From the NCBI RefSeq assembly GCF_054482595.1, contig NZ_CM137008.1: DNA of 64,000 nucleotides. One strand, given 5' to 3'. The translations under genes were made by a program, and so were the position numbers. Of this stretch, positions 5,535 to 63,700 are shown in pieces (positions within the stretch are counted from its first letter, which is position 1; every line of letters starts with the position of its first letter). Under the pieces are notes generated by a model, which made no database searches, was not told the DNA's origin, and worked only from the letters and a program-made list of their open reading frames with translations.

Positions 5535-7385
5535 ATGGCAACAATAATCCCAACAATCAGTAGCTGCAACGATAAAATTACTGCCGGAGAGAAAAGGCTG
5601 GCAAGAATTCTGGAAAGAGGACTAGGCGAAGAGTGCTGCTGTTGGTATGACATTCCCACGGGTGATAAGCATCTTCACCCAGATTTTATGATACTTTCGC
5701 CAGAAAAAGGCATTATTTTTCTCGAGGTAAAAGATTGGTTTATTACAAAAATAAAAAAAGCCAACAAGTCTAATGTTTTGTATGAGACACAAAATGGCAT
5801 TCAATCTTTAAAGAATCCGATAGAACAAGTTAGGCGATATGCTTTCGAAGCTGTAAACCAGTTAAAAAAAGACCCCCTATTGTGCCAACAGGAAGATCGT
5901 TACAATGGCAATCTTCTTTTCCCCTATGGATATGGCGTCTACTTTAGTAATATTACACGAGAAGCATTAAATAATAAATTTACTCAAGAAGAGCTGCTCG
6001 GGATCTTCCCATCAGATCTTATCATCTGCAAAGACGAACTAAATGAATTCATGTCAAAAGGGGATGTTTCATCCAAAATACATTCGTTGATTAAATATGA
6101 CTTCAAATGTCATGCTACACAAGAACAGTTGAACAGGATTAGATGGCACTTATACCCCGATGTCAGAATAGAAAGGGAAAAGAGAAGTAAAAACTGTGAT
6201 GAATTTAGTGTCGATGCACCAACCATCATTTCTATCCTGGATACTCAACAGGAACAACTTGCCAGAAGTATGAGAGACGGCCACCGAATAATTCATGGTG
6301 TTGCAGGTTCAGGTAAGACATTGATCCTCTATCATCGCTGTCAGGAATTAGCGAAAAAAAATGACAGCGAAAAGCCAATACTTGTCATTTGCTACAATAT
6401 TACTTTAGCCAAAAAACTTCGGTCGATGTTCATCAATCATCCCTTTGAAGAGAAAATAAAGGTTAATAATTTTCATGCTTGGTGTTTCCAACAAATTAAA
6501 AAAAACAAGATCACCATTCCAGAAGGGGATAATATTTTTGAAAATATGGAGCAAGCGTTGACTGATGGTTTCAACACAGGAAAAATAAAACCAGAACAAT
6601 ACAGCGCTGTATTAATTGATGAAGGACATGATTTTAAGCCCGAATGGTTAAAAATCCTGGCAAAAATGACTGACTCTCAGGACGAGAATTTGCTATTTCT
6701 TTATGATGATGCTCAGTCAATTTATCAAAAAAAGAAAGCATTAGACTTTACACTGTCCAGCGTGGATATTAAAGCGACAGGACGCACAACTATTCTTAAT
6801 ATAAATTATAGAAACACACAACAAATTCTACACTTTGCCAGTTGCATTGCATTTAATTATCTTAATAGCCATATCGATAGTTCTTTAACCTATCATAAAC
6901 CTGCTGCGGGAGGAATGAATGGCGATTATCCCAAGCTTGAACATTTCGACACACAGGACGAAGAAATAGCAAGAGCAGTCAAATGGATTACAGAGCAAAA
7001 TGAACAAGGGATTCCGTGGTCTGAAATTGCTATACTTAGTCCTTCAACTCACATCCTTTCTAACTCTCTAAGTTCTGTACTTGAATCGAAAAATATCCCC
7101 TTTAATCTTATTGTAAGCTCTGCAGATAAAAAGTCCTGGACGCCAGAACAAGAGCGTATTTCTGTTATGCCATTACCCAGCAGCAAAGGACTTGAGTTTC
7201 ACTCAGTTGTCATTATTGATGCAGCGAGAACACGGGATAATAGTGATGATTTGAGTGAGGATATAAAGAGACTCTATGTAGGTTTTACCCGAGCACGTTG
7301 CAATCTCTTGGTAACCTTGCACGGTGAAGGTGCGTTAAATGAGCATCTACTAAGAACCTATAAGCAAAGCCCACAATATATGTAA
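5535..7385 (+). CDS. NERD-domain / SF1 (UvrD-like) helicase fusion protein, 616 aa; candidate single-gene nuclease-helicase defence protein
   Basis: N-terminal NERD-like motif (GEKRLARILERGL ... HPDFMILSPEKGIIFLEVKDW). Helicase motifs: Walker A HGVAGSGKT, motif II VLIDEGHDF, KGLEFHSVVI, and C-terminal LYVGFTRAR. The gene is strongly AT-rich. Confidence 0.7.
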   Translation: MATIIPTISSCNDKITAGEKRLARILERGLGEECCCWYDIPTGDKHLHPDFMILSPEKGIIFLEVKDWFITKIKKANKSNVLYETQNGIQSLKNPIEQVRRYAFEAVNQLKKDPLLCQQEDRYNGNLLFPYGYGVYFSNITREALNNKFTQEELLGIFPSDLIICKDELNEFMSKGDVSSKIHSLIKYDFKCHATQEQLNRIRWHLYPDVRIEREKRSKNCDEFSVDAPTIISILDTQQEQLARSMRDGHRIIHGVAGSGKTLILYHRCQELAKKNDSEKPILVICYNITLAKKLRSMFINHPFEEKIKVNNFHAWCFQQIKKNKITIPEGDNIFENMEQALTDGFNTGKIKPEQYSAVLIDEGHDFKPEWLKILAKMTDSQDENLLFLYDDAQSIYQKKKALDFTLSSVDIKATGRTTILNINYRNTQQILHFASCIAFNYLNSHIDSSLTYHKPAAGGMNGDYPKLEHFDTQDEEIARAVKWITEQNEQGIPWSEIAILSPSTHILSNSLSSVLESKNIPFNLIVSSADKKSWTPEQERISVMPLPSSKGLEFHSVVIIDAARTRDNSDDLSEDIKRLYVGFTRARCNLLVTLHGEGALNEHLLRTYKQSPQYM

Positions 7386-7403
7386 AAATGATAAATTATC
7401 TCC

Positions 7404-7437
7404 ATAACGCCCGGTAACGCTGTACCGGGCGTTATGA
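7404..7437 (+). terminator. Perfect 14-bp inverted repeat hairpin downstream of the NERD-helicase gene
   Basis: cataacgcccggta-acgctg-taccgggcgttatg read directly; no strong T-run follows. Confidence 0.4.
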
Positions 7438-7626
7438 ATGCATATCTAAGATATTAGTCACGCATGATAGCCGCCACCAAAAACACCATCATCTCCCTCG
7501 CCTCTTTGCGGTGATAAAAGCGTACCATTTTGCTGTTAAATTCCAGCGTTTTAGCCGCTGGAATTAACAAGATCAAACTTCCGGCAACGAAGATTCAGTT
7601 ATTACAAATAATTACTGGAAAAAGAG

Positions 7627-7824
7627 ATGAAAAGCGTGGTTGACAACACATCGAAATATCCTGACTGGAGTAAACGCGATGATATTAAAGCGAAACTGAA
7701 AGTTGAACTTATTCTGCTTCTACACAAGCATAAGTTCCCGCCAGTAGCGAATGATGATGTTTATATGGGTGTGCTGGCACAGGTAGAGAATTTTAAAGAA
7801 CATCATATGAGTGCTTTAAATTAA
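7627..7824 (+). pseudogene. 65-aa ORF, possible C-terminal remnant of a displaced restriction-system gene (hypothesis only)
   Basis: Short ORF upstream of symE in the position occupied by hsd genes in K-12. The motif KRDDIKAKLKVELILLLHKHKFPPV resembles my recollection of type I HsdR C-terminal tails. Unverified. Confidence 0.25.
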
Positions 7825-7943
7825 TCATGAAGGCTGGATACACTTTGTTATCCGGCCATTGTGAATTAATGTTAATTTTTCTTCCAAATCTTTCCAATAA
7901 CGCTTTTATTATTTTCTATTTTTAGCTGGACTTTCCCTGTATT

Positions 7944-7963
7944 TACTGATGATATATCCAGAT
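7944..7963 (+). promoter_or_regulatory. LexA (SOS) box-like CTG-N10-CAG element upstream of symE
   Basis: TACTGATGATATATCCAGAT read directly about 78 bp upstream of the symE ATG; symE is a known SOS-induced gene. Confidence 0.5.
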
Positions 7964-7984
7964 ATTTAGCGCGGTGCGGATGTG

Positions 7985-8065
7985 CGCCAACACACCCGCA
8001 CCGCTCATCACAATCACTATTTTCAAGGAATAGCAGTTATGACTGACACGCATTCTATTGCACAA
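7985..8065 (-). ncRNA. symR: Expected position of SymR antisense sRNA (type I antitoxin) overlapping the symE 5' end; approximate coordinates
   Basis: Placed from the known symE/SymR arrangement, not from detected promoter or terminator signals. A 9-bp inverted repeat GCGGTGCGG/CCGCACCGC lies at 7971-8004. Confidence 0.3.
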
Positions 8066-8380
8066 CCGTTCGAAGCAGAAGTCTCCCCGGCAAATAACCG
8101 TCAATTAACCGTGAGTTATGCGAGCCGCTACCCGGATTGCAGCCGTATTCCCGCCATCACCCTGAAAGGTCAGTGGCTGGAAGCCGCCGGTTTTGCCACC
8201 GGCACAGCGGTAGATGTCAAAGTGATGGAAGGCTGTATTGTCCTCACAGCCCAACCACCCGCCGCCGAAGAGAGCGAACTGATGCAGTCGCTGCGCCAGG
8301 TGTGCAAGCTGTCGGCGCGTAAACAAAAGCAGATACAGGAATTTATTGGGGTGATTGCGGGTAAACAAAAAGTTGCCTGA
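8039..8380 (+). CDS. symE: SOS-induced toxin SymE (type I toxin-antitoxin), 113 aa
   Basis: Internal ATG at 8039 of ORF 7982-8380 gives [33 protein letters not shown]..., matching SymE. Confidence 0.85.
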
Positions 8381-8388
8381 TACATTGA

Positions 8389-8419
8389 CCCGGTAGCACC
8401 AGTGCTACCGGGTATTATT
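8389..8419 (+). terminator. Hairpin plus T-rich tail between convergent symE and the GmrSD-like gene
   Basis: cccggtagca-ccag-tgctaccggg followed by tattatt, read directly. Confidence 0.5.
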
Positions 8420-8426
8420 CGCCGCG

Positions 8427-10520
8427 TTATACCAACGCGCTCTCCATCTGTTTTTCAAATGCCTGACGAATTAATCCCATAATGTAAGGAAGTTGTGCGA
8501 GGTCGCTGAAACAAATTTCCACATCACCATTGCCCCATCGCCCAACATTTGTCACATCTTTGGCAATACCTTTCGGATCGACCAGTTCATGAAACTGCAT
8601 ATTAAGCGACAATCGCAGTCGGCTTTTTTGCGGCACAACATCAACAAAATTCGTTTCAGCTTTAAACGCAATATATAGCTTCAATACTTCCTGCGTGATC
8701 CCTGCGTCCAGGCGCATAACTTCATCGCGAAGATGATCGAATAACACCCGGCTATGCGAACCATCAGCAAGAAAAGGATAATCACTCAGGCTGTAACTGG
8801 TTTTGTTTTCAGGCTGCCCCCGATAAACAGCTAAAACCTCTTCAGAAAGAGAAGGCGCTTGCCAGACCTGAATCGCGAGATCGGCCAGACGATCGGCTCG
8901 GGCGTGAATGGCGGCTTCATCCCATTTTTCGCACTGTCCAAGACCGATATTCAAATAGAGCGGGCTATGCTTAAAGCCGTCTTCAATATCGCGTTTTTCC
9001 GCGAAAGGTCTGTCACTGTAGCGGGAGTTATAGCGCGTTAATGTGAGATTCCCCAACGTATGCAACAGTTCTTTATGAATGCGTTGCCAGTCACTTCCCA
9101 GCTCTTCACGCCATTTAGCCGACAAATTTTCGTTCTGCGGCATAATATGCTCAATCGTAAACTCTTCCACGCGCTCTCTGCGTTTATCGTTTTCCAGTCG
9201 TCGTAACCAGTAGCTGCGACTACGGAAGTTATAGAGATCGCGAACTTTTAATTCCCGTTTAAATTCATCATCGTTGGGGAAACGACGATATGAAGGTAGA
9301 TTCAAAAAATGTACCTGAATACTTTCCAGATAATTTTCTTTATTAATAACTTTATAAAAAGTGGCAAATGTCTTGTTCAAAGAATTTGTCGGAATTGCAC
9401 ATACTGCACGGCGGAAAACATAAGATTCAATTAAACGAATTATGCTCAGAAAATCTTCGTGAGACAAAACGCCATTTTTATAGTCATGATAAAGCGCCAG
9501 TAAGAAAGGATACGCCACATCGACCTTTAACTCGCGCAAATCCTGAAAAGCCGTAGCAAGCGATTTGTCACTTTCTTTTCCCAATGCCATTGCACAGTAA
9601 TACTCCGCGTAGATATGAATATCTTCAACCAGCCGATCTACGCCTTTTTCAGCAACACTCTGGCTGCGGGCATGGAGTTTAAATGCCTCATAGACTTCAT
9701 CTGTCCGAGGGATCTCCCCCGTTTTTACCGTCAGATAATGACGCATAAAACTGTCAAAATATTCGCTGTAACCTTGCTGACCAAAGGCGACTTCCATTGG
9801 ACGCCAGTGATCTTCATACAATCGGGTTTGATGCTCTGGTTCGAGGCCCATCAGAATAAAATTGCGCACCAGATCGGCCTGACTTAACGCCTTACCGGTG
9901 GAGTTCATACTTTCAAAAATCAGTTGCGGATTATCCTGACCACGATTAAGCGCCACATCGACAATTAATAACTTTGCTAACCCACGACATAAGGGGATCA
10001 AGTCATCACCGAGTTTGGCAATTTGTTCATCAAAGAAAGTAAAGTTTTCCATTATTCGATGGGAATAGTTTTCTGGCATTGGTCTTTGTTTTATTAACGC
10101 CAGTAAACTGTCTTTATCAGTCTCGGTCAGCAGTAATTTAAAACCTTTCTCGCCGGACTCATAAGGATTGAGCAAATAATAATTACGCAATTTCATTGCC
10201 GAAAAGCCATCAAAAACTTCGTCTTCGCCAAGATGGCGCGATAAAGCCTCAATCAGCAACATTGCGGTCGTCAGCCGCTGCTGACCATCAATGACCAGCA
10301 ACGGAGAAATACCAGAAACCTGATACAATCCCTGCTCTATATAAACAACCGAACCGATAAAATGCGCTGATATATCGTCACGCTTTCCTGCACGAATGAT
10401 GTCGTCCCAAAGTTGCCGACATTGTTGTTCTGTCCATGAATAAGTCCGTTGATAAATGGGAATAACAAACTGCTGCGAACGTTTTAAAAAATCGAGTAAG
10501 CGAGCTTCTGTAGCTTTCAT
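8427..10520 (-). CDS. DUF262 + DUF1524 (GmrSD-family) putative Type IV modification-dependent restriction endonuclease, 697 aa
   Basis: N-terminal DUF262/ParB-like motifs IPIYQRTYSW and VIDGQQRLTT. C-terminal His-Me finger/DUF1524-like motifs FTIEHIMPQ, GNLTL and YNS. Confidence 0.7.
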   Translation of the reverse strand: MKATEARLLDFLKRSQQFVIPIYQRTYSWTEQQCRQLWDDIIRAGKRDDISAHFIGSVVYIEQGLYQVSGISPLLVIDGQQRLTTAMLLIEALSRHLGEDEVFDGFSAMKLRNYYLLNPYESGEKGFKLLLTETDKDSLLALIKQRPMPENYSHRIMENFTFFDEQIAKLGDDLIPLCRGLAKLLIVDVALNRGQDNPQLIFESMNSTGKALSQADLVRNFILMGLEPEHQTRLYEDHWRPMEVAFGQQGYSEYFDSFMRHYLTVKTGEIPRTDEVYEAFKLHARSQSVAEKGVDRLVEDIHIYAEYYCAMALGKESDKSLATAFQDLRELKVDVAYPFLLALYHDYKNGVLSHEDFLSIIRLIESYVFRRAVCAIPTNSLNKTFATFYKVINKENYLESIQVHFLNLPSYRRFPNDDEFKRELKVRDLYNFRSRSYWLRRLENDKRRERVEEFTIEHIMPQNENLSAKWREELGSDWQRIHKELLHTLGNLTLTRYNSRYSDRPFAEKRDIEDGFKHSPLYLNIGLGQCEKWDEAAIHARADRLADLAIQVWQAPSLSEEVLAVYRGQPENKTSYSLSDYPFLADGSHSRVLFDHLRDEVMRLDAGITQEVLKLYIAFKAETNFVDVVPQKSRLRLSLNMQFHELVDPKGIAKDVTNVGRWGNGDVEICFSDLAQLPYIMGLIRQAFEKQMESALV

Positions 10521-49943: not shown

Positions 49944-50632
49944 CGTTTTTCCCTTATAATTACAGACGCGCACTAGCTGTGCTGGGTTAGTAATAATCCA
50001 ACATTTTTATCCTGATTATGTTTATAAAAGCGAACGTTTGCTTAATAACTAACGTAAGTGGACCAGTTCTTCTAAGTGAACTTAAATGGAGTAGCAACAG
50101 TTAATTATAATAACGTTGCCATACAAACGCTATGCTCTTGCATGCTATGTACCTTTATATATTTATCAATCGGATACGAATCTAATAATAACCCTCATCA
50201 TTAATGCAACTAATCTTATCTATATATCATGTGATATGTTCTGTAACAAGTAAAATCAACATAAAAAATTCAGCAAAATTTAATATTCGTTCAACTAGCC
50301 GTCTCACATATGACATTATTAGTCAACTCCATTTGCCACAAAATGGCTATTTCATGGAGCGCAGTAATTTCTTAGTGGCTATTATCATGCTAATTCTTAG
50401 GTCCCTAGCGATTATTCCTGGCTGGTTCGTCAGCTTACGCCATGAGATTGTTACATTCCTTTTTATCCTGGAGATATGGGGGAACGCAGGAGATGATTTT
50501 TTCATCTACATTCGTTGGTAAATATAGCTTTGGTCACTACGTAGACTGGCCCCCTGAATCTCCAGACAACCAATATCACTTATTTAAGTGATAGTCTTAA
50601 TACTAGTTTTTAGACTAGTCATTGGAGAGCAG

Positions 50633-50998
50633 ATGATTGATGTCTTAGGACCGGAGAAACGCAGACGGCGTACTACACAGGAAAAGATCGCTATTGTTCA
50701 GCAGAGTTTTGAACCGGGAATGACAGTCTCCCTTGTTGCCCGGCAACACGGTGTGGCAGCCAGCCAGTTATTTCTCTGGCGCAAGCAATACCAGGAGGGA
50801 AGTCTTACTGCTGTGGCCGCAGGAGAACAGGTCGTTCCTGCCTCTGAACTTGCTGCCGCCATGAAGCAGATTAAAGAACTCCAGCGCCTGCTCGGCAAAA
50901 AAACGATGGAAAATGAACTCCTTAAAGAAGCCGTTGAATACGGGCGTGCAAAAAAGTGGATAGCGCACGCGCCCTTATTGCCCGGGGATGGGGAGTAA
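50633..50998 (+). CDS. insC: IS2 transposase OrfA (InsC), 121 aa
   Basis: [29 protein letters not shown]...; A-AAA-AAG slippery heptamer at 50950-50956 for programmed -1 frameshifting into orfB. Confidence 0.85.
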
Positions 50999-51861
50999 GC
51001 TTAGTCAGCCGTTGTCTCCGGGTGTCGCGTGCGCAGTTGCACGTCATTCTCAGACGAACCGATGACTGGAAAGATGGTCGCCGCAGCCGTCACTCAGATG
51101 ATACGGATGTGCTTCTCCGTATACACCATGTTATCGGAGAGCTGCCCACATATGGTTATCGTCGGGTATGGGCGCTGCTTCGCAGACAGGCCGAACTTGA
51201 TGGTATGCCTGCGATCAATGCCAAACGTATTTACCGGATCATGCGCCAGAATGCGCTGTTGCTTGAGCGAAAACCCGCTGTACCGCCATCGAAACGGGCA
51301 CATACCGGCAGAGTGGCTGTGAAAGAAAGTAATCAGCGATGGTGCTCTGACGGGTTCGAGTTCCGCTGTGATAACGGAGAAAAACTGCGAGTCACGTTCG
51401 CGCTGGACTGCTGTGACCGTGAGGCACTGCACTGGGCGGTCACTACGGGCGGCTTCAACAGTGAAACAGTACAGGACGTCATGCTGGGAGCGGTGGAACG
51501 CCGTTTCGGCAACGAGCTTCCGGCGTCTCCAGTAGAGTGGCTGACGGATAATGGTTCATGCTACCGGGCTAATGAAACACGGCAGTTTGCCCGGATGTTG
51601 GGGCTTGAACCGAAGAACACGGCGGTGCGGAGTCCGGAGAGTAACGGCATAGCAGAGAGCTTCGTGAAAACGATAAAGCGTGACTACATCAGTGTCATGC
51701 CCAAACCAGACGGGTTAACGGCAGCAAAGAACCTTGCAGAGGCATTCGAGCATTATAACGAATGGCATCCGCATAGTGCACTGGGTTATCGCTCGCCACG
51801 GGAATATCTACGGCAGCAAGCCAGTAATGGGTTAAGTGATAACAGGTGTCTGGAAATATAG
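50956..51861 (+). CDS. insD: IS2 transposase OrfB (InsD), DDE catalytic domain, 301 aa
   Basis: ORF-track ORF overlapping insC in the -1 frame; sequence recognised. Confidence 0.85.
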
Positions 51862-52294
51862 GGGCAAATCCACTACGACTTAAACCTTCCTCAATCACAG
51901 CCATTCGCCGGGCGATACGGCAAACAAACTAAGTGAAACATCATCCTGAAAACACCAACATCAACAAGCCTCTCCAGATCGACTTCAGAAGTGACCAGTT
52001 ACAAGCCACAAACCAGGAAACATATTTCATGATGAGAATTATGCTCAGCCTGATGGCGGGTAAACACTGATTTTCACCAAGCTCACTGAGTTAGCTTGCA
52101 AAGCTTCCCTTGTTTAGACTCTAAATAAATTATTTATAAAACAAATAGTTAAACAAAAATCTTTAGTTTTTGAAGACCACTGCAAGTGTTCGTCTGGCTT
52201 CACATGGCATCTTCCTCTTAGAAAAAGATCGACATATTTTGTGACACGAATTGCAAATCTGGTTTTGTTGTATGGATTGCGTGATTTTTGATCT

Positions 52295-55621: not shown

Positions 55622-55775
55622 GCGTTCATTAATTTGATTTATTCGCATCCATCAGCGCTTTTAACTCCTCCGGCGTAAACGGTGGTTTGCGTAGGTGCAA
55701 CATCGCATGGCAATTAGGGCACACAGGCAGCAAAAAAACAAATGAGATCAAAGTAATATATCTTCACTTGCAGGC

Positions 55776-56705
55776 TTGAACAGCAGAAAATTTGCGAGCA
55801 TGATCGCAATTATTTCACTGCCAGGGATATCAATGGCTTCCAGTAAATCGCTACAGCAGGCAATTGCCAATATAAAAATCTGGCATAAGGGTGAACAGCG
55901 CGCACCGCATAAACCATTGTTATTGCTATACGTATTAGCGGGATACCTGAATGGACATCCACGCCTTTTCGATTATGGATCGGAAATCTACGAACCTCTG
56001 CACAGTTTACTGGAACGTTTTGGGCCACAGCGTTCACAGTACCGACCTGATATGCCGTTCTGGCGATTACAAGGCGACGGATTCTGGCAATTACACAATG
56101 CCGAGCTTTGCTCAACAGCAGGGAGCAGCCGACAACCGCCAGTGAAGGAACTGAACGAATACCACGTTGCAGGCGGTTTCGATGAACAGCACTACGCCTT
56201 GGTAACCGGCAATAAAAAACTCATCAATACTCTGGCGCAACAGATACTCGAAGCGCACTTCACCGAGAGTATTCAGGAAGAAATTGCTGACGAGCTGGGT
56301 TTTGATCTCCAGCAAATCCGTAAACAGTGCGACCCGTTATTTCGCAAAAATGTATTACGCGCTTATAAATACCAGTGCGCGATATGTGGCTTTAATATGC
56401 GCCACGACGACACCACCGTCGCGCTGGAAGCGGCGCATATAAAATGGAAACAGCACGGCGGTCCTTGTGAAATTCCTAATGGCCTGGCGCTTTGCGCAAT
56501 TCACCATAAAGCCTTTGATAAAGGATCGATTGGCCTGGACGAAAATATGCGGGTACTGGTATCAGATGCGGTAAACGGCGGAGGGATCGTTGAGAGATTA
56601 TTCTGGGATTTTGACGGGAAAACTATTGCGTTGCCGCAGGTGCGTAAAAATTACCCTTATGAGGTGTTTGTAGAGTGGCATCGGAAAGAGGTTTTTAGGG
56701 GGTGA
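55776..56705 (+). CDS. HNH endonuclease with an N-terminal putative modified-DNA reader domain; candidate Type IV restriction enzyme, 309 aa
   Basis: C-terminal HNH motif CAICGF ... LEAAHIKWKQHGGPCEIPNGLALCAIHHKAFDKG. The N-terminal domain (APHKPLLLLYVL ... MPFWRLQGDGFWQL) has no catalytic motif recognised. An alternative start is the ATG at 55833. Confidence 0.6.
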   Translation: MNSRKFASMIAIISLPGISMASSKSLQQAIANIKIWHKGEQRAPHKPLLLLYVLAGYLNGHPRLFDYGSEIYEPLHSLLERFGPQRSQYRPDMPFWRLQGDGFWQLHNAELCSTAGSSRQPPVKELNEYHVAGGFDEQHYALVTGNKKLINTLAQQILEAHFTESIQEEIADELGFDLQQIRKQCDPLFRKNVLRAYKYQCAICGFNMRHDDTTVALEAAHIKWKQHGGPCEIPNGLALCAIHHKAFDKGSIGLDENMRVLVSDAVNGGGIVERLFWDFDGKTIALPQVRKNYPYEVFVEWHRKEVFRG

Positions 56706-57017
56706 GGTAGCCATTATATATCTTTCACCTAGGATTTTAAATGTAATAGATAAAGTATTTTCTGACACCGAAAGTAGTATTTATGAGTACATAGCCACAA
56801 ATCAATTTTAAAATCTCAATATAAAATACGTTTACAAATATTCTAGTCAGAGTAAATATATATTCATTATAAGAGAATCCAATTATTAACCAATCGAAAT
56901 TACAAATTAAAAAACAATTGGCATGTTGAATTGTACACTAATTTATATACATAGTAAATTTACATCTATTCATGATATAATTATCGTGATATCAATTCAT
57001 TAATCAGGAAAATCATA

Positions 57018-57320
57018 ATGGAATTGTTAAATACTTATGATGATAAAGAAACAGCTGAAATATTTTTTGAAAAAATAGACGGAGAGAAAAGATTAGCAAG
57101 TGAGAGAGATGCTACAGAAACAGTCTATAACCTCTTCGGGCAACCAACATGGAAAAACTTTTATCTTCTTGATATGTTTAACCTAAAAGAGTTACAAGGG
57201 ATTATAGAGTGTAGAAAAAATGGACAGCCGTTCGACCAGGAACGACACAGGGAAATAATAAAAATGCTTGAATATGCAGCAAAATCGTTTGACCTAATTA
57301 TTCCTGCACATTGGCGATAA
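57018..57320 (+). CDS. Hypothetical protein, 100 aa, AT-rich, convergent with the Res-like gene
   Basis: ORF-track ORF preceded by aggaaaatcata; no family recognised. Confidence 0.35.
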   Translation: MELLNTYDDKETAEIFFEKIDGEKRLASERDATETVYNLFGQPTWKNFYLLDMFNLKELQGIIECRKNGQPFDQERHREIIKMLEYAAKSFDLIIPAHWR

Positions 57321-57366: not shown

Positions 57367-60300
57367 TTACTCGCTAACCATCTTACTGAATAACTTCTCC
57401 AGATAAACGGGGCCTGTATCCTCAATAAAAAGCACATTTCTGGCTTCCAGATTTTCTTTTGAGTCAGGTACGTTTACTAAGTCAACATAACAAGTTTCAG
57501 AAACAATAAATGCACTTAATGATAAGTTATCATCCGATAATTTATGTTCAAGATTCTTAATTTCTTTATATAATCCGAACTTCGGATCATCAAGATTAAG
57601 ATTGCGAATGCCTTTTGGATCAATAAGACTTAGCCATTGTTTACCACTTTTATCATCGACTAACCACAATAAGAAATCCGGATAAAAATTACCCGCAGTA
57701 GCAAAGCCCAGGCCTTTATTTTTAGAATCCGCATTTCTTAGCAGATATAAACTTTTATCACCAATAATTTTCTGCCCTTTTGTCGAATCAACAAAAGACT
57801 GAAGATCCTGAACAAAAGTAATCTCGCTTGGCGCACCAAGTGCTGCCGGTCGCATTTTTAGCGGTATATTGGCATTTTTTTCAATCGAAAGAAGCGGGTA
57901 ATAGAGATGTTTATCAAAGGTAATAGCAACCATCCCGGATGCACTCCAGGATTTTGCTTTACCGATTTCGCCGTCGATGACCAATTGTTGTAATTGTTCC
58001 AGCCGACTGGCATAAGCCAACCCATCATCAGTTTCTTCGATCTCGAAATGGTACATTTTGATCATACCAGGATCATCTTCTTTCACCTGCGTGACTTCAT
58101 AAAACTGACCTTCATAAGCATTTTTCAAGGTGTTGTAAAAGCGATCAGTATAATCAGTCAGCAGACGAAGCATAATATCTTCCTGCTTAGCAATATCTGC
58201 ATATTGCTTAATCTCAAGCTCTGAAGCTGGAATCAAAAGGGTATACCAACTATTTCCGATCTTTGTCTTACCGGTACAAAAGTCGATCAAACGTTGTTTA
58301 TCCACACGTAAATTTGACCAGCCGCGTTGTAGTTTATAATTCTGAATGGCGAGATAAAGCCGATCAAAATCAAATGCACTAATGATTTTATAATCTAACT
58401 TCGCTTCATTGCGCACGTTAACCGGAGTATTGTCCCCTTTTCTGCTGGTATCAATCGACTCAAGTTTCGGGTATAAGTCCAGCTTAATATGCGGCTGCTT
58501 AATTTTCCCCTGAAAATCAGCAGGAACTTCATACAATTCAGGAAAATAGACACGTTTAAAGCCGAGTCTTTGATTATCTTTATAACCATCTTTAAGCTTA
58601 AGTGTTTTAAGCCTGGTTGCTGGCATATTTGGCCGAGTTTCAAAATTCAGCTCAAGGATCTCGTCACTTGGCGTAATCCCTTCATCTTCCAGGTATTGTT
58701 TAAAGGTTGCCATGTAATCGGCACGTACACCGAATACATTCAGTGTCTCTAATTTTTCCAGATGCAACCCTTTCGGACGCTCACCGGGTGTACTGCGTTT
58801 CAAAGAATAATTGCGACCTTTAAGGCGTACGCCACGACCAAATAACTGAATGATCTGTGAACCTTCTCCACGGCCCATATTGAGCAATCCCATCGTTGAG
58901 ACGCGCCAACTGCTCCAGCCTTCAGTAAATTTTCGCGAGCCGATCAAAATATGTAGTCGCGAGTCTTTGTCATTTAACGTATGAAAGAGTGACTTTGCAA
59001 AATCATCTCTCTGATAATCAAATGTCGTATCCTCTTCACACATTTTGTAAAGAGACGGTGCATCACCAATATTGATAAGGCCAAACGGTTCGGCCTCACC
59101 AACCTGTAATGCCAGTTCACCTTTACTGCCTATTAAATTCAGAACTCGCAGTCGCTGACCAGAGTGAGTGGTGTTAAACAAGCGAGAAAGAATATCTGCG
59201 TAGATATCTTCCGGAGCGTTCATTAGTGCAGTAAAGCGATTTTCAAAAATGTTACGCTCTTTGGTATCGAGGATTCGCGCTTTATTTTTAATGAGATCGT
59301 TAATCCACGCTTTTGCCTGCGTTTCGTGGTTTAAAAACCATGCTAAAAAACGCAATACTGCGTGAATGTCTGAATCTTCACCACTTACCGTATTACCGAC
59401 AAAAACCCACAGCGGTTTTTCGATATTAAATTCACTTAATTTTTCTTTATTCTTATTGAATAAATATTGTTGCTGATAAAAGCTGAGCAAACACGCGGTA
59501 AAATACTCATACCGACGCTCATCTTTTTTATCCTCTTCAGGATTAAGGTTAAGAATCAGTGATTCTTTACCATAACCATCCTCATAGAAGAATTTATAGG
59601 AGTAATCGAACAGAATCGATTTTCCATAGACCTCTCGCGTCGCCTGAATACGCGCATCTCGTTTTTCTTCGCTGGTTAATGCTATTTGCGCTAACTCTTC
59701 TTCGTTCAGTTTACCTAAGGCCGTTGTTTCAAAAAGCAGCTTTGCTTTTTTCTTCTGAATTTCTGTTTCAACTGCCTCAACATTATTGCCACCGGCTACT
59801 GCCTGGCCAAAAGTTGCTGAATATTCAAACGCAAATCCGTCACGTGTTAATTTGTCACGACGGCGCATCCAGGCACCAGCAGCACTTCCGGTGCCTTTAT
59901 GCCCTTCATCAATCAGAACCAGATTGTTGCCTTCAAATGCCTCAACGGCAACAGTTTTGTCACCCATTTCATCGGCAAGTTTATTGATATCAATAACTTC
60001 AATCGTGCCTTTGAAGGGCGCAGATTTACTCTTATCGAATAACTGGTATTGGGTAAATCCTGAGTTTTCCAGCTCATCTAAATGTTGCTTCGACAGGCGT
60101 TCATCCGGAGTAAGCAGGATGATTTTGTCGGGGTAATGGTGGGTATTACCGTTCTGGAAATAATGTAAGTATTGCAAAATATTGACATGCAATAGCAGTG
60201 TCTTACCAGAACCAGTAGCATTCCAGTATGCCAGTTTATTCAAATCATCCAGAATATATGATTTGAACTGATTAGCCCGGTCTTTTGCTGTTTTATCATT

Positions 60301-60747
60301 TTCAGCATTGTATGCTGCCAGCTCGTTATTTAGCCCATCGAGTAATTGCTGTTTACGATTGAAGTACCAGTCCAGGTAGATCTCGGTAAACAAAAGCGAC
60401 AAGTACTGAAAATATTTCATGTTCAGCACAGTGTCTTCTTTGCGATTACGGTGCTCAGTTATCTGCTGCCAGTGCTGCACGATATTGAGATCGTAACGAC
60501 GCAGTTCATCGAGATCGATAAGATCGACCTCGAATAAATAGTTACTCAGCTCATGGAAGAACAAACTTTGGCCATCCTCATGGATGCCTTCAAAGCGATC
60601 TTCACCTAACCGATTCTTCAGACCTTGCAATGTGCCATCTTTAAAAAAATGGAACATAAAGCGGTTCAAAACCAGTTGCTTATGAAAGCTCAGTTTGCTG
60701 TTTGTCTCTTTTTTAACAGCTTTACCGGTGGTCGGTTTTTTAGCCAT
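57367..60747 (-). CDS. Type III restriction Res-like subunit: SF2 helicase core with C-terminal PD-(D/E)XK nuclease motif, 1126 aa
   Basis: Motif I WNATGSGKT, motif II VLIDEGHKG, motif III SATFG, motif VI QLFGRGVRL; C-terminal YPDFLLWLVDD ... LIDPKG (PD ... DxK). Strong GGAGGAGG SD; start lies 2 nt after the Mod-like stop. Confidence 0.75.
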   Translation of the reverse strand: MAKKPTTGKAVKKETNSKLSFHKQLVLNRFMFHFFKDGTLQGLKNRLGEDRFEGIHEDGQSLFFHELSNYLFEVDLIDLDELRRYDLNIVQHWQQITEHRNRKEDTVLNMKYFQYLSLLFTEIYLDWYFNRKQQLLDGLNNELAAYNAENDKTAKDRANQFKSYILDDLNKLAYWNATGSGKTLLLHVNILQYLHYFQNGNTHHYPDKIILLTPDERLSKQHLDELENSGFTQYQLFDKSKSAPFKGTIEVIDINKLADEMGDKTVAVEAFEGNNLVLIDEGHKGTGSAAGAWMRRRDKLTRDGFAFEYSATFGQAVAGGNNVEAVETEIQKKKAKLLFETTALGKLNEEELAQIALTSEEKRDARIQATREVYGKSILFDYSYKFFYEDGYGKESLILNLNPEEDKKDERRYEYFTACLLSFYQQQYLFNKNKEKLSEFNIEKPLWVFVGNTVSGEDSDIHAVLRFLAWFLNHETQAKAWINDLIKNKARILDTKERNIFENRFTALMNAPEDIYADILSRLFNTTHSGQRLRVLNLIGSKGELALQVGEAEPFGLINIGDAPSLYKMCEEDTTFDYQRDDFAKSLFHTLNDKDSRLHILIGSRKFTEGWSSWRVSTMGLLNMGRGEGSQIIQLFGRGVRLKGRNYSLKRSTPGERPKGLHLEKLETLNVFGVRADYMATFKQYLEDEGITPSDEILELNFETRPNMPATRLKTLKLKDGYKDNQRLGFKRVYFPELYEVPADFQGKIKQPHIKLDLYPKLESIDTSRKGDNTPVNVRNEAKLDYKIISAFDFDRLYLAIQNYKLQRGWSNLRVDKQRLIDFCTGKTKIGNSWYTLLIPASELEIKQYADIAKQEDIMLRLLTDYTDRFYNTLKNAYEGQFYEVTQVKEDDPGMIKMYHFEIEETDDGLAYASRLEQLQQLVIDGEIGKAKSWSASGMVAITFDKHLYYPLLSIEKNANIPLKMRPAALGAPSEITFVQDLQSFVDSTKGQKIIGDKSLYLLRNADSKNKGLGFATAGNFYPDFLLWLVDDKSGKQWLSLIDPKGIRNLNLDDPKFGLYKEIKNLEHKLSDDNLSLSAFIVSETCYVDLVNVPDSKENLEARNVLFIEDTGPVYLEKLFSKMVSE

Positions 60748-60749
60748 TC

Positions 60750-63700
60750 TTAAACCTCCTCCGCAAACATCAGGTTCAAGAATTCAGGTTCGATCTGGCG
60801 GATTTTCAGGCTACGAACAATCTCGCCGTCTTCTTCATCAACGGTAAAGGCGGTAGGCAAGTTATGATCGCCATTGATATAGATAACGTCATACGTGTTT
60901 TCTTTTGCATACAAATCAAATCGGTTAGCATATTTATTCAATTCTTCATAACCGATCTTGTCGCAATCGCGCCACAGAATAAGGGTACGCTCGCCTGTTG
61001 GCAGCGTACCTTCAACACGCACATAGCCACGTTCGATATTGGATTCGATGGATTTCACATGTAATCCAATGAGATAGTTGAAAGTTTCAACTAAATCGAT
61101 GTTTTTACGCTCAGTGGCACCGGCGGAATCCGTCGCAATATCCATTTCGTAGTTAAATGGTTTTTTGAAATTATCGATTCCGAGAAAAGAATCTTTACTC
61201 TCATTTTTAATGAGATAATTTAATAGATAATCATTCCTCACATCTGAAGGCAATGTTTCGAAAAGATCTATGGGAGATTTTTTCAGTACTATATTATTTA
61301 AGCAATCTTCATAGCTTTCTAGTTTAATTGTTTTAAGAATATGTGATATACCGTTTTTATCCTGTGGATAACCTTTATTCCACTTATCGCTATAAACGGC
61401 TTTTACAATTCTAGCTTTTATAACTGAATCAGAATGTTCTCCCATTTCAACTAATATATATTTATGATCTTCAGATTTTTCTCTATTTCTATTAATAACA
61501 GCATGTGCGGTGGTTCCACTGCCGCCAAAAAGATCGACTATGGTTTCATTATTAGCACTATGCCATACTGAATCAATAACGCGTTCCATAGTACCTAAGG
61601 ATTTTGGATAAGAAAACAAACCTGCAGAGCCAAACATGGACGTTAATAAATTTGTGCCACCTATGGTAGCATTATATTGTGATCCTTGCCAAATACTAGG
61701 AAGCAGTAACCTTCTTGCGCTATCATGATATAATCTGTTTATGACAAATTTGTTTGAACTTACCAATTCACCTACTTCAATTGCTTTTTTAGCCCCTTCA
61801 TAAGAAAGCGACCAAACTCTTTCTTCCCCATTCTCACCAATGGGATAGACTCTTTTTAAACCTTCTTTGGTTTCACCTACCGGATAATTACCTTTTTCTA
61901 AAGGAACAGGTGGTGGTTCGACTCCTTTAACTTCAAATGTATCAGGGTCAACCAAAACTGCAAAAAAGCTTTCTGGACGACCAGGATTACCAATCCTAAA
62001 ATTATTATCTCCGGTACCAGCTCTTCTAAAACCTCTAGTTCGAATTCCATCCTCCACACTATCCCCTTTGAGAATATCCATTCCTTCTGGTATAGAAAAC
62101 AGACAATATTCATGTGTTCTCGAAACATTTGTTCTACCTGTCCCAGACCCAGGATAGTGCTCAACGATACATTGTAAAACCTCTCTTTCTGGATTGATAC
62201 TTTTTTCCAATTCTTTTAAAAGAGACATTTCTGTATCATCAATAGCATAACAAAAAACACCGTTATTATTTAATAGTTTTTTAGATAAAATGATTCTATC
62301 AGCCATTAATGTAGCCCATGAAGAATCCTTATATCCATTTTTATATAAGATAGGAGTTGCATCAGTATTATATGGTGGATCAAGATATATTATGCTTGTA
62401 CTTTTATCAAACTTAGTCTCAAGGATTTTTAGGGCTTGATAATTTTCAGAGTTGACCAATAGCCCATTAATCTCATTATCAATATTATCAATTGATCGAA
62501 TCAGTTCACATTTAAATTTAGAATCAAAAAAAGTAGTATCAACCATCAGATATGGTGAACTCTTGAGAAATTTCATATCCCGAGAGTTATGCTGTTGAAA
62601 TAGACCTAGCGTACTCCAATGTTTAAATTGTTTATCATTTACTAATATAGTTTGATAAAGAGCATCTGGAATTCTATCTAAAGTAATACAGTATTCCGTA
62701 GAAACAACAAACTTCTTCTTAGTCCAAAGTTTTTTCTGGAAATTCTCAATTTGTGCCAAAAATGTAATGAGTTCCAGTGCAACAGTACGCAAACATTGAA
62801 TCATGCGCAATTGTTTCTCAATATTGGCAAACACTTCTGCATTTTGCACATTATCGAGATTCATTACTTCATTTTTAATATAAAAATCCAGTTCGTTCGT
62901 TAAAAAACCACCGAGATCTTTATGGATAAAGTAGTCTGCTGTATTACGCTGGGTATAAGTTGTAAGGTGACGCTCCAACTCTGTACGTGACGGATTTTTT
63001 TCTGTTGGCGCACGTTTAGCAAGATCAACCCAATGCTGTTGAACTGTTTTATCTGCCAGAATTGTTGAAATAGCGGACTGTACTAAAGCATCCTGCTTAG
63101 TGCCCTTTTTCATTGCCTTATATTCGAAGTGAATAACTAACTCTTCTGTTTCAACGAGTTTACCGTCCACCACAGATGAGTTTTTCACCACTTCTACTGG
63201 CTTATATTCTTGTTCATACTCATCACCTTCTTCATCAATTTTGGTACGAACATGTGGCTCAATAAGTACAAAGCAGCGATCTAATTCATTATCCTTACGG
63301 TTATCTTTTGCTGTGTCCGCTGCGAGCAATTTAAAGCTAACTTTACGACCATCATCTAATTTAAATGAATAATTAGCAAAGTTTTCGCCACTTTTAATGT
63401 AGTACTGGTCCTTATTTGCCCAGTGCAACATCACTTCTTCGCCAGAATAAGGGATGGCGTAGGTATTACCTTTATAACGGCGTTTGCTGATAAAATCGCC
63501 GTTGTCATAATAACGAGAAAAGAAAGTGAGCAGATGGGAAAATACTGCATTTTCATGCTCATTTGCTCCGGATGCCATAGCCGCCAGTTGCTTTTTAAGC
63601 TCCTGTACTTTCGGGCTATCAGCAGGGTCCACACCCGCATCAGTTGCCGCTTTTATTGTCAGTTGCAACTGATGTTCTAATTCTGATTTATTGGCATTTC

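What the first reader, a model, noticed from the sequence alone, without database searches (positions are those of the whole stretch)
55776..56705. HNH endonuclease with an uncharacterised N-terminal domain next to the R-M-like operon
The C-terminus has a clear HNH motif of the kind found in McrA/ScoMcrA-like modification-dependent enzymes. The ~200-residue N-terminal domain, rich in conserved aromatics, could be a modified-base or phosphorothioate reader. Together with the adjacent operon this makes the nanS-distal region look like a defence island.
Basis: partly seen in the sequence, partly recalled or inferred. Interest (0 to 1): 0.55.

Follow-up and report, generated by a model that had tools for sequence, protein, structure and literature searches.

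The report
Known phosphorothioate-dependent restriction enzyme (EcoWI type)

Summary
The ORF is real, but the likely start is the ATG at 55833 (290 aa), not the TTG at 55776. The C-terminus is an intact HNH nuclease with a CxxC/CxxH zinc site. The N-terminal about 155 residues are the sulfur-binding domain (SBD) of phosphorothioate (PT)-dependent restriction enzymes. Evidence: NCBIfam NF045808 at 433 bits (cut-off 180), sequence and fold matches to SBD–PT-DNA crystal structures of ScoMcrA, SprMcrA and Hga, and conserved pocket residues. RefSeq already names this exact gene 'phosphorothioated DNA-binding restriction endonuclease'. It is 286/290 identical to the E. coli W orthologue, with an identical SBD. 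E. coli W is the probable source of EcoWI, which cuts GpsAAC/GpsTTC at N7/N6, needs Mg2+, is a dimer and restricts dnd+ plasmids (PMC7461809). About 1,700 of 5,426 complete E. coli genomes carry a near full-length copy; K-12-type genomes keep a frameshifted remnant. The 'defence island' reading holds: the gene borders a cassette-swapping slot next to tRNA-Leu (leuX), here filled by a type III R-M system. The two are not one operon, because homology between strains ends 3 nt after the stop codon. One caveat: this allele has R166C and N179K at positions invariant in 30 relatives. Low interest.

The parts
55833..56705 (+). Coding sequence of the PT-dependent restriction endonuclease (SBD-HNH, EcoWI type), 290 aa plus stop
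   Evidence: ORF. RefSeq CDS WP_021557484.1 on 100% identical DNA. NF045808 at 433 bits against a cut-off of 180. 286/290 identical to the E. coli W orthologue.
55833..56297 (+). Sulfur-binding domain (SBD), residues 1-155. Pocket residues are H26, K27, M74, P75 and R78, equivalent to ScoMcrA H116, R117, Y164, P165 and A168.
   Evidence: phmmer hit to 5zmo/5zmn/5zmm at E = 5e-8 to 3e-7. AF2 pLDDT 70-96 over this part. Foldseek TM 0.67-0.78 to SBD-PT-DNA structures. H26, K27, P28 and P75-L79 are invariant in 31 sequences.
56298..56375 (+). Linker and N-terminal lead-in of the nuclease domain (residues 156-181). It holds the two allele-specific substitutions C166 and K179.
   Evidence: Alignment A1: R166 and N179 in 30 of 30 other sequences. 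The exact 78-nt segment occurs in 17 of about 1,595 E. coli genomes.
56376..56540 (+). HNH nuclease core (residues 182-236). Zinc site C182, C185, C221, H224; catalytic H202, N216, H225.
   Evidence: Pfam HNH_2 E = 1.3e-9. Match to the TagI HNH domain, 6ghs. All seven residues invariant. Motif assignment follows PMC7461809.
56706..56709 (.). Junction where similarity between strains stops. Conserved flank to the left, exchangeable defence cargo to the right.
   Evidence: blastn of E. coli W, FDAARGOS_1286 and TW10598 against the window ends at 56708 in all three. Sequences printed side by side. GC falls to 0.34.
55629..55733 (-). C-terminal remnant (34 codons) of a second, divergently oriented HNH endonuclease gene
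   Evidence: RefSeq pseudogene annotation. Translation ends ...CPNCHAMLH.... Intact 216-aa gene at this place in FDAARGOS_1286.
57018..57320 (+). 100-aa ORF of unknown function in the variable cargo
   Evidence: ORF. RefSeq hypothetical protein WP_000421875.1. No hit in NCBIfam, PADLOC or PHROGs.
57367..60747 (-). Type III restriction subunit (Res), 1126 aa. Neighbour, not part of the enzyme.
   Evidence: PADLOC REase_III PDLC03654, 2326 bits, nearly full length. Pfam ResIII/DEAD at residues 167-313.
60750..63869 (-). Type III methyltransferase (Mod), 1039 aa. Neighbour, not part of the enzyme.
   Evidence: PADLOC MTase_III PDLC03646, 1652 bits, full length. Pfam N6_N4_Mtase at residues 493-812. 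RefSeq start.

Best explanation
The gene encodes a stand-alone phosphorothioate-dependent restriction endonuclease of the SBD-HNH (EcoWI) type. The steps below are inferred from characterised relatives. The N-terminal SBD docks on DNA whose backbone carries an Rp phosphorothioate. The sulfur sits in a non-polar pocket floored by P75 and walled by H26, K27 and M74, and K27 makes the salt bridge. Neighbouring loops read the GpsAAC/GpsTTC context. The protein works as a dimer. Its C-terminal zinc-stabilised HNH domain (H202, N216, H225) cuts both strands a fixed few bases 3' of the site with Mg2+; EcoWI cuts at N7/N6 and leaves a 1-nt 3' overhang. The host does not itself make PT-DNA, so only incoming DNA made in Dnd+ bacteria (plasmids, phages) is destroyed. 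The domain architecture, fold, residues and near-identity to the E. coli W protein are shown here. Activity, specificity and cut position are inferred from EcoWI and were not tested on this allele.
For: - NF045808 'phosphorothioated DNA-binding restriction endonuclease' scores 433 bits against a cut-off of 180, end to end.
- Pfam HNH_2 matches the C-terminus.
- phmmer finds the ScoMcrA SBD (5zmo, E = 5e-8) and the SprMcrA SBD, with HR->HK and YP->MP aligned.
- In the AF2 model the SBD part is confident. The top 16 Foldseek PDB hits are all SBD-PT-DNA structures.
- Pocket, zinc and catalytic residues are invariant in 31 sequences.
- The KPzzLL..PF..L..W motif of PMC7461809 is visible in the sequence.
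- The protein is 286/290 identical to the E. coli W orthologue at the same locus, and residues 1-155 are identical.
- PGAP gives this name to the identical gene.
- EcoWI biochemistry and in vivo restriction of dnd+ plasmids are in PMC7461809 and PMC9521924.
- No dnd or ssp genes are annotated over the window's extent.
Against: - This allele carries C166 and K179, where 30 of 30 other representatives (72-98% identical, several genera) have R and N. Only 17 of about 1,595 E. coli genomes share the segment. Activity could therefore be reduced or altered.
- The gene family decays often in E. coli. 4,549 genomes have a match but only 1,706 have at least 80% of the gene, and K-12-type genomes have a frameshifted stub.
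- The nuclease half of the AF2 model has low confidence (pLDDT < 50), so its fold rests on sequence alone.
- The papers read do not state that EcoWI comes from E. coli W. That is inferred from the REBASE naming rule, the same length, and a mass of 33.3 kDa against the reported 33.4 kDa.
- No promoter was found above chance.
- Whether the rest of this genome lacks a dnd cluster could not be checked.
Confidence: 0.85

Rival explanations
1. The gene belongs to the EcoWI family but this allele is weakened or on its way to becoming a pseudogene. The substitutions R166C and N179K, at otherwise invariant positions just before the zinc finger, would impair DNA cleavage and leave a PT-DNA binder with little restriction activity.
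For: C166 and K179 are unique among 31 aligned sequences. The allele is rare, 17 of about 1,595 genomes. Decay of this gene is common in E. coli.
Against: The reading frame is intact, and all pocket, zinc and catalytic residues are kept. The identical allele persists in at least 15 genomes from humans, ducks, pigs and chickens. Neither position is a known catalytic residue.
Confidence: 0.12
2. It is a McrA/ScoMcrA-like enzyme that targets methylated or hydroxymethylated cytosine rather than phosphorothioate.
For: It shares the SBD with ScoMcrA, and both carry an HNH nuclease. PADLOC gives a weak match to a type IV methyl-directed enzyme model, over the SBD part only.
Against: There is no SRA domain. 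Only 290 aa are present, the SBD runs straight into the HNH domain through a short linker, and Pfam finds only HNH_2. In ScoMcrA the cytosine-modification dependence belongs to the SBD-SRA-HNH architecture (PMC7461809). EcoWI cut Dcm+ pBR322 only non-specifically (PMC7461809).
Confidence: 0.02
3. It is a homing or phage-type HNH endonuclease belonging to a mobile element.
For: PHROGs gives weak matches of the HNH part to phage HNH families.
Against: These matches cover only residues about 160-245. The gene sits at a fixed chromosomal place between nanS and leuX in many strains, with no intron, intein or phage context. The N-terminal domain is an SBD.
Confidence: 0.01

Closest known systems
EcoWI (SBD-HNH, PT-dependent; Lutz et al. 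2020, PMC7461809; Yang et al. 2022, PMC9521924)
   Same: Same two-domain architecture, length (290 aa) and mass (33.2 kDa here, 33.4 kDa reported). Same KPzzLL..PF..L..W motif and CxxC/CxxH zinc site. 98.6% identical to the E. coli W protein at the same chromosomal place, with an identical SBD.
   Different: Four residues differ from the E. coli W protein: G156R, C166R, K179N and H208Q, written window to W. Two of them, C166 and K179, depart from a family-wide consensus. The link between EcoWI and E. coli W is inferred, not stated in the papers read.
ScoMcrA of Streptomyces coelicolor (SBD-SRA-HNH; PDB 5ZMM/5ZMN/5ZMO; PMC6224610)
   Same: Homologous SBD with the same fold (TM 0.78 to 5zmo, about 22% identity). 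Equivalent pocket residues: H, K in place of R, and P. HNH nuclease at the C-terminus.
   Different: No head domain and no SRA domain. M74 stands in place of the Y164 'lid' and R78 in place of A168. The expected core sequence is GpsAAC/GpsTTC rather than GpsGCC. EcoWI-type enzymes use Mg2+ and cut at a fixed distance; ScoMcrA uses Mn2+ and cuts at variable distance.
SprMcrA (SBD-HNH, Streptomyces pristinaespiralis; PDB 7CC9/7CCD/7CCJ; PMC7470945)
   Same: Same SBD-HNH architecture. The SBD matches by sequence (E about 6e-3) and by fold.
   Different: About 19-20% identity. SprMcrA has an H-N-R nuclease motif, needs Mn2+ and cuts at a wobbling distance (PMC7461809). Here the motif is H-N-H.

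Membership tests
SBD-HNH PT-dependent restriction endonucleases (NCBIfam NF045808; EcoWI-like) | Full-length match to the curated family model above its cut-off | tested here: met
   433.1 bits against a cut-off of 180; profile positions 2-284 of 284.
SBD-HNH PT-dependent restriction endonucleases (NCBIfam NF045808; EcoWI-like) | N-terminal domain with the sulfur-binding-domain fold | tested here: met
   phmmer to 5zmo at E = 5e-8. AF2 pLDDT 70-96 for residues 1-160. The top 16 Foldseek PDB hits are all SBDs, TM 0.67-0.78.
SBD-HNH PT-dependent restriction endonucleases (NCBIfam NF045808; EcoWI-like) | Sulfur-pocket residues: His, then Arg or Lys, then the Pro of the (Y/x)P motif | tested here: met
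   H26-K27 and M74-P75 align to ScoMcrA H116-R117 and Y164-P165. H26, K27 and P75 are invariant in 31 sequences. Lys at the Arg position and a variable residue at the Tyr position are normal for the family (PMC6224610).
SBD-HNH PT-dependent restriction endonucleases (NCBIfam NF045808; EcoWI-like) | C-terminal HNH nuclease with H-N-H residues and a CxxC/CxxH zinc site | tested here: met
   Pfam HNH_2 E = 1.3e-9. C182, C185, H202, N216, C221, H224 and H225 are invariant.
SBD-HNH PT-dependent restriction endonucleases (NCBIfam NF045808; EcoWI-like) | Cleavage stimulated by Rp-phosphorothioate in DNA; restriction of dnd+ DNA in vivo | not testable with these tools
   Shown for EcoWI and four homologues (PMC7461809). 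Not shown for this allele.
SBD-HNH PT-dependent restriction endonucleases (NCBIfam NF045808; EcoWI-like) | No dnd modification cluster of the same specificity in the same host | tested here: inconclusive
   No dnd or ssp genes are annotated across the window's extent or up to leuX in the identical strain XH990. The rest of the genome could not be searched.
McrA/ScoMcrA-type cytosine-modification-dependent enzymes (SBD-SRA-HNH) | SRA (or other modified-cytosine-binding) domain between the SBD and the HNH domain | tested here: not met
   Pfam finds only HNH_2. The ScoMcrA match stops at the SBD. Only about 25 residues separate the SBD from the zinc finger.
Homing / phage HNH endonucleases | Location inside an intron, intein or phage genome; no modification-reader domain | tested here: not met
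   Fixed chromosomal site between nanS and leuX in all six strains examined. SBD present.
Type III restriction-modification (the neighbouring operon) | Mod with an N6/N4 methylase domain next to Res with a ResIII/DEAD helicase domain, co-oriented | tested here: met
   PADLOC MTase_III at 1652 bits and REase_III at 2326 bits. Pfam N6_N4_Mtase and ResIII. The nuclease motif of Res was not examined.

The most novel reading that the evidence does not exclude
The intact gene serves as the fixed recombination anchor of a defence-cassette exchange slot between it and tRNA-Leu (leuX). In four strains the sequences diverge within 3-9 nt of its stop codon and carry four different cargoes. In addition, the rare R166C/N179K allele linked to the type III cassette may be a tuned (attenuated or re-specified) version of the nuclease rather than neutral drift.
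Probability: 0.1. Interest if true: 0.3.

Novelty: already known. Interest (0 to 1): 0.1.

Why it matters
It matters little beyond correct annotation. The enzyme class is characterised structurally and biochemically, is used as a sequencing reagent (EcoWI-seq), and NCBI's pipeline names it automatically. The practical points are these:
- This strain is predicted to refuse PT-modified DNA, which is relevant when moving dnd+ plasmids or phages into such strains.
- The nanS–leuX interval is a defence hotspot whose content differs from strain to strain.
- The type III system next door should be judged on its own, not as a partner of this nuclease.

Tried and rejected
- **Pfam scan of the protein.** The library available here found only HNH_2 and nothing for the N-terminus. 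That is a gap in this library version, not evidence of novelty. The precomputed Pfam list for all homologues shows a second family, PF26340, whose name the tools do not give.
- **SRA or other modified-base readers.** No hit; rejected.
- **EcoWI accession or sequence.** Neither the main text nor the supplement of PMC7461809 gives one. The tie to E. coli W stays an inference.
- **Promoter and terminator scan around the gene.** Counts were no higher than in shuffled sequence; uninformative.
- **leuX-derived attachment repeat at the junction after the stop codon.** Only chance 11-13-mers were found, so there is no sign of integrase-mediated insertion at this end. No integrase is annotated between the gene and leuX in XH990.
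- **Is K-12 yjhR a remnant of the window's Res gene?** No nucleotide similarity.
- **AF2 model of the nuclease half.** Low confidence, so no structural statement is made about C166 or K179.
- **100-aa ORF at 57018-57320.** No hit in three libraries.

Full report
**Observation.** The + strand carries an uninterrupted ORF at 55776-56705, 309 aa if read from the first possible start, a TTG. The likely start is the ATG at 55833, giving 290 aa and 33.2 kDa.
- RefSeq/PGAP annotates 100% identical DNA in E. coli XH990 and at least 14 other complete genomes from that ATG.
- The curated family profile begins at its position 2 only five residues after that ATG.
- An AGGGA motif lies 7-8 nt upstream of it.

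The HNH motif at the C-terminus is real: Pfam HNH_2, E = 1.3e-9.

**What the N-terminal domain is.** It is not uncharacterised.
- The whole protein matches NCBIfam NF045808, 'phosphorothioated DNA-binding restriction endonuclease', at 433 bits against a curated cut-off of 180, over the full profile.
- A sequence search of the PDB finds the sulfur-binding domain (SBD) of ScoMcrA (5ZMO, 5ZMN, 5ZMM; E = 5e-8 to 3e-7) and of SprMcrA (7CC9, 7CCD, 7CCJ) over residues 1-140 of the 290-aa form. It finds the HNH domain of TagI over the C-terminus.
- An AlphaFold2 model built on 31 homologues is confident for residues 1-160 (pLDDT 70-96) but not for the nuclease half.
- Foldseek against the PDB returns SBD–PT-DNA structures of ScoMcrA, SprMcrA and Hga as the first 16 hits, with TM 0.67-0.78 normalised to the target. 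Nothing else falls below E = 0.1.

The Pfam library available here has no model that hits this domain. The precomputed Pfam list for every homologue shows a second family, PF26340, beside PF13391.

**Functional residues.** In the HMMER alignment to ScoMcrA, H26-K27 align with H116-R117, M74-P75 with Y164-P165, and R78 with A168.
- Liu et al. [quoted passage not shown]
- They report that R117 is lysine in most homologues and that R117K keeps binding.
- They report that Y164 varies with the PT core sequence and that A168 is poorly conserved.

The pocket here is therefore the normal one for the non-GGCC branch. The motif KPzzLL..PF..L..W that Lutz et al. (PMC7461809) give for EcoWI and its active homologues can be read directly in the sequence (HKPLLLLYVL ... 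MPFWRL ... FW). In an alignment of 31 sequences (72-98% identical; Escherichia, Shigella, Citrobacter, Klebsiella, Enterobacter, Salmonella and others) the following residues are invariant:
- H26, K27, P28 and P75-L79
- the zinc ligands C182, C185, C221 and H224
- the catalytic H202, N216 and H225

**Relation to the characterised enzyme.** Lutz et al. characterised EcoWI as follows (PMC7461809; also PMC9521924):
- It is an SBD-HNH protein of predicted mass 33.4 kDa and a dimer in solution.
- It is Mg2+-dependent.
- It recognises GpsAAC/GpsTTC and cuts at N7/N6 with a 1-nt 3' overhang.
- It abolishes transformation by dnd+ plasmids in vivo.

The paper gives no accession or strain. By REBASE naming the source should be E. 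coli W. E. coli W (NC_017635) has a 290-aa 'phosphorothioated DNA-binding restriction endonuclease' (WP_000168572.1, 33.3 kDa) at the same place next to the nanS remnant. The window protein is 286/290 identical to it, with residues 1-155 identical. The same PT specificity is therefore the reasonable inference. Even the tested homologues that share only 28-31% identity with EcoWI recognise GpsAAC/GpsTTC (PMC7461809).

**A caveat on this allele.** The four differences from the W protein lie in the linker and nuclease half.
- At positions 156 and 208 the window has the family consensus.
- At positions 166 and 179 it has C and K, where all 30 other aligned sequences have R and N.
- The exact 78-nt segment with both changes occurs in only 17 of about 1,595 E. 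coli genomes that hold this part of the gene.

Neither position is a known catalytic or zinc residue, and the frame is intact. The low-confidence nuclease model does not allow a structural judgement. I give about 12% to the view that this allele is functionally weakened.

**Distribution.**
- 4,549 of 5,426 complete E. coli genomes have some match to the gene, and 1,706 have at least 80% of it.
- K-12-type genomes keep only a frameshifted, truncated stub beside yjhR.
- The large protein database holds 4,316 relatives at E <= 1e-5. The best 120 are all from Enterobacteriaceae, and many are already named as this enzyme.

**Context and the 'defence island' claim.** In the window and in XH990 the order is: fim genes; nanC-nanM-nanS; a 105-nt remnant of a second HNH gene (55629-55733, - strand); this gene; a 100-aa ORF; type III Res (57367-60747, -); type III Mod (60750-63869, -). 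Just beyond the window come an SNF2-related gene and tRNA-Leu (leuX). No integrase is present.

Similarity of the window to E. coli W, FDAARGOS_1286 and TW10598 ends at 56708, 3 nt after the stop codon. Those three share six more bases and then diverge from one another. GC falls to 0.34 at that point. The cargo beyond the junction differs by strain:

| Strain | Arrangement around the gene |
|---|---|
| E. coli W | McrBC-family genes, then a type I system and more |
| TW10598 | BREX remnant and a mobile element |
| FDAARGOS_1286 | one hypothetical gene, then leuX |
| O157:H7 SS52 | type II Zorya on the other side of the gene, where the nan genes have been largely lost |

However, the nuclease belongs to the conserved flank, and the type III system is independently exchanged cargo rather than a functional partner. 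No dnd or ssp genes are annotated anywhere across the window's extent. This fits the finding that such enzymes rarely sit near dnd clusters, fewer than 3.6% of cases (PMC7461809). The rest of the genome could not be checked.

**Rivals.**
- A cytosine-modification-dependent McrA-like role is rejected because there is no SRA domain.
- A homing or phage HNH is rejected because of the SBD and the fixed chromosomal site.
- The only rival worth weight is partial loss of function in this allele.

**Verdict.** This is a known enzyme of a known family, correctly named by the standard annotation pipeline and nearly identical to a characterised E. coli enzyme. Interest is low (0.1); novelty is 'already known'.

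Noticed in passing
window 50542-51870: An IS2-like (IS3-family) insertion sequence, orfA 50588-50998 and orfB 50956-51861, sits in the fimB-nanC intergenic region. It is absent from the otherwise identical strain XH990. That intergenic region is known to control fimB expression (my own knowledge), so the insertion might affect the type 1 fimbrial switch.
   Followed up: partly
window 5535-10520: The slot between yjiA and yjiS, the classical hsd/mcr/mrr 'immigration control' position, holds a different set here by XH990 annotation: a 3'-5' exonuclease (5535-7385 +), a type I enzyme fragment, symE (8039-8380 +), a GmrSD-domain type IV restriction enzyme (8427-9590 -) and a DUF262 pseudogene (9915-10520 -).
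   Followed up: no
window 55629-55733 (- strand): A 34-codon C-terminal remnant of a second HNH endonuclease (...CPNCHAMLH...), oriented divergently from the PT-dependent enzyme. The gene is intact (216 aa, WP_001037972.1) in strain FDAARGOS_1286, where about 570 extra bases are present. Its function is unknown.
   Followed up: partly
window 57018-57320 (+ strand): A 100-aa ORF in very AT-rich DNA (GC about 0.34) lies between the nuclease and the type III Res gene. RefSeq annotates it as hypothetical. It has no hit in NCBIfam, PADLOC or PHROGs.
   Followed up: partly
window 57367-63869 (- strand) and beyond the window end: The type III system is atypically large. Mod is 1039 aa with the methylase domain only at residues 493-812. 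Res is 1126 aa with helicase motifs only at residues 167-313. A 963-aa SNF2-related gene follows directly, then tRNA-Leu (leuX). The large unassigned regions and the SNF2 partner were not examined.
   Followed up: no
window 56703-56715; L002, L004 and L005 at the matching place: Four strains share sequence up to 3-9 nt past the stop codon of the nuclease gene and then each diverges into different cargo. No leuX-derived repeat was found at this junction. This points to cassette exchange by recombination in the flanks rather than by site-specific integration.
   Followed up: partly
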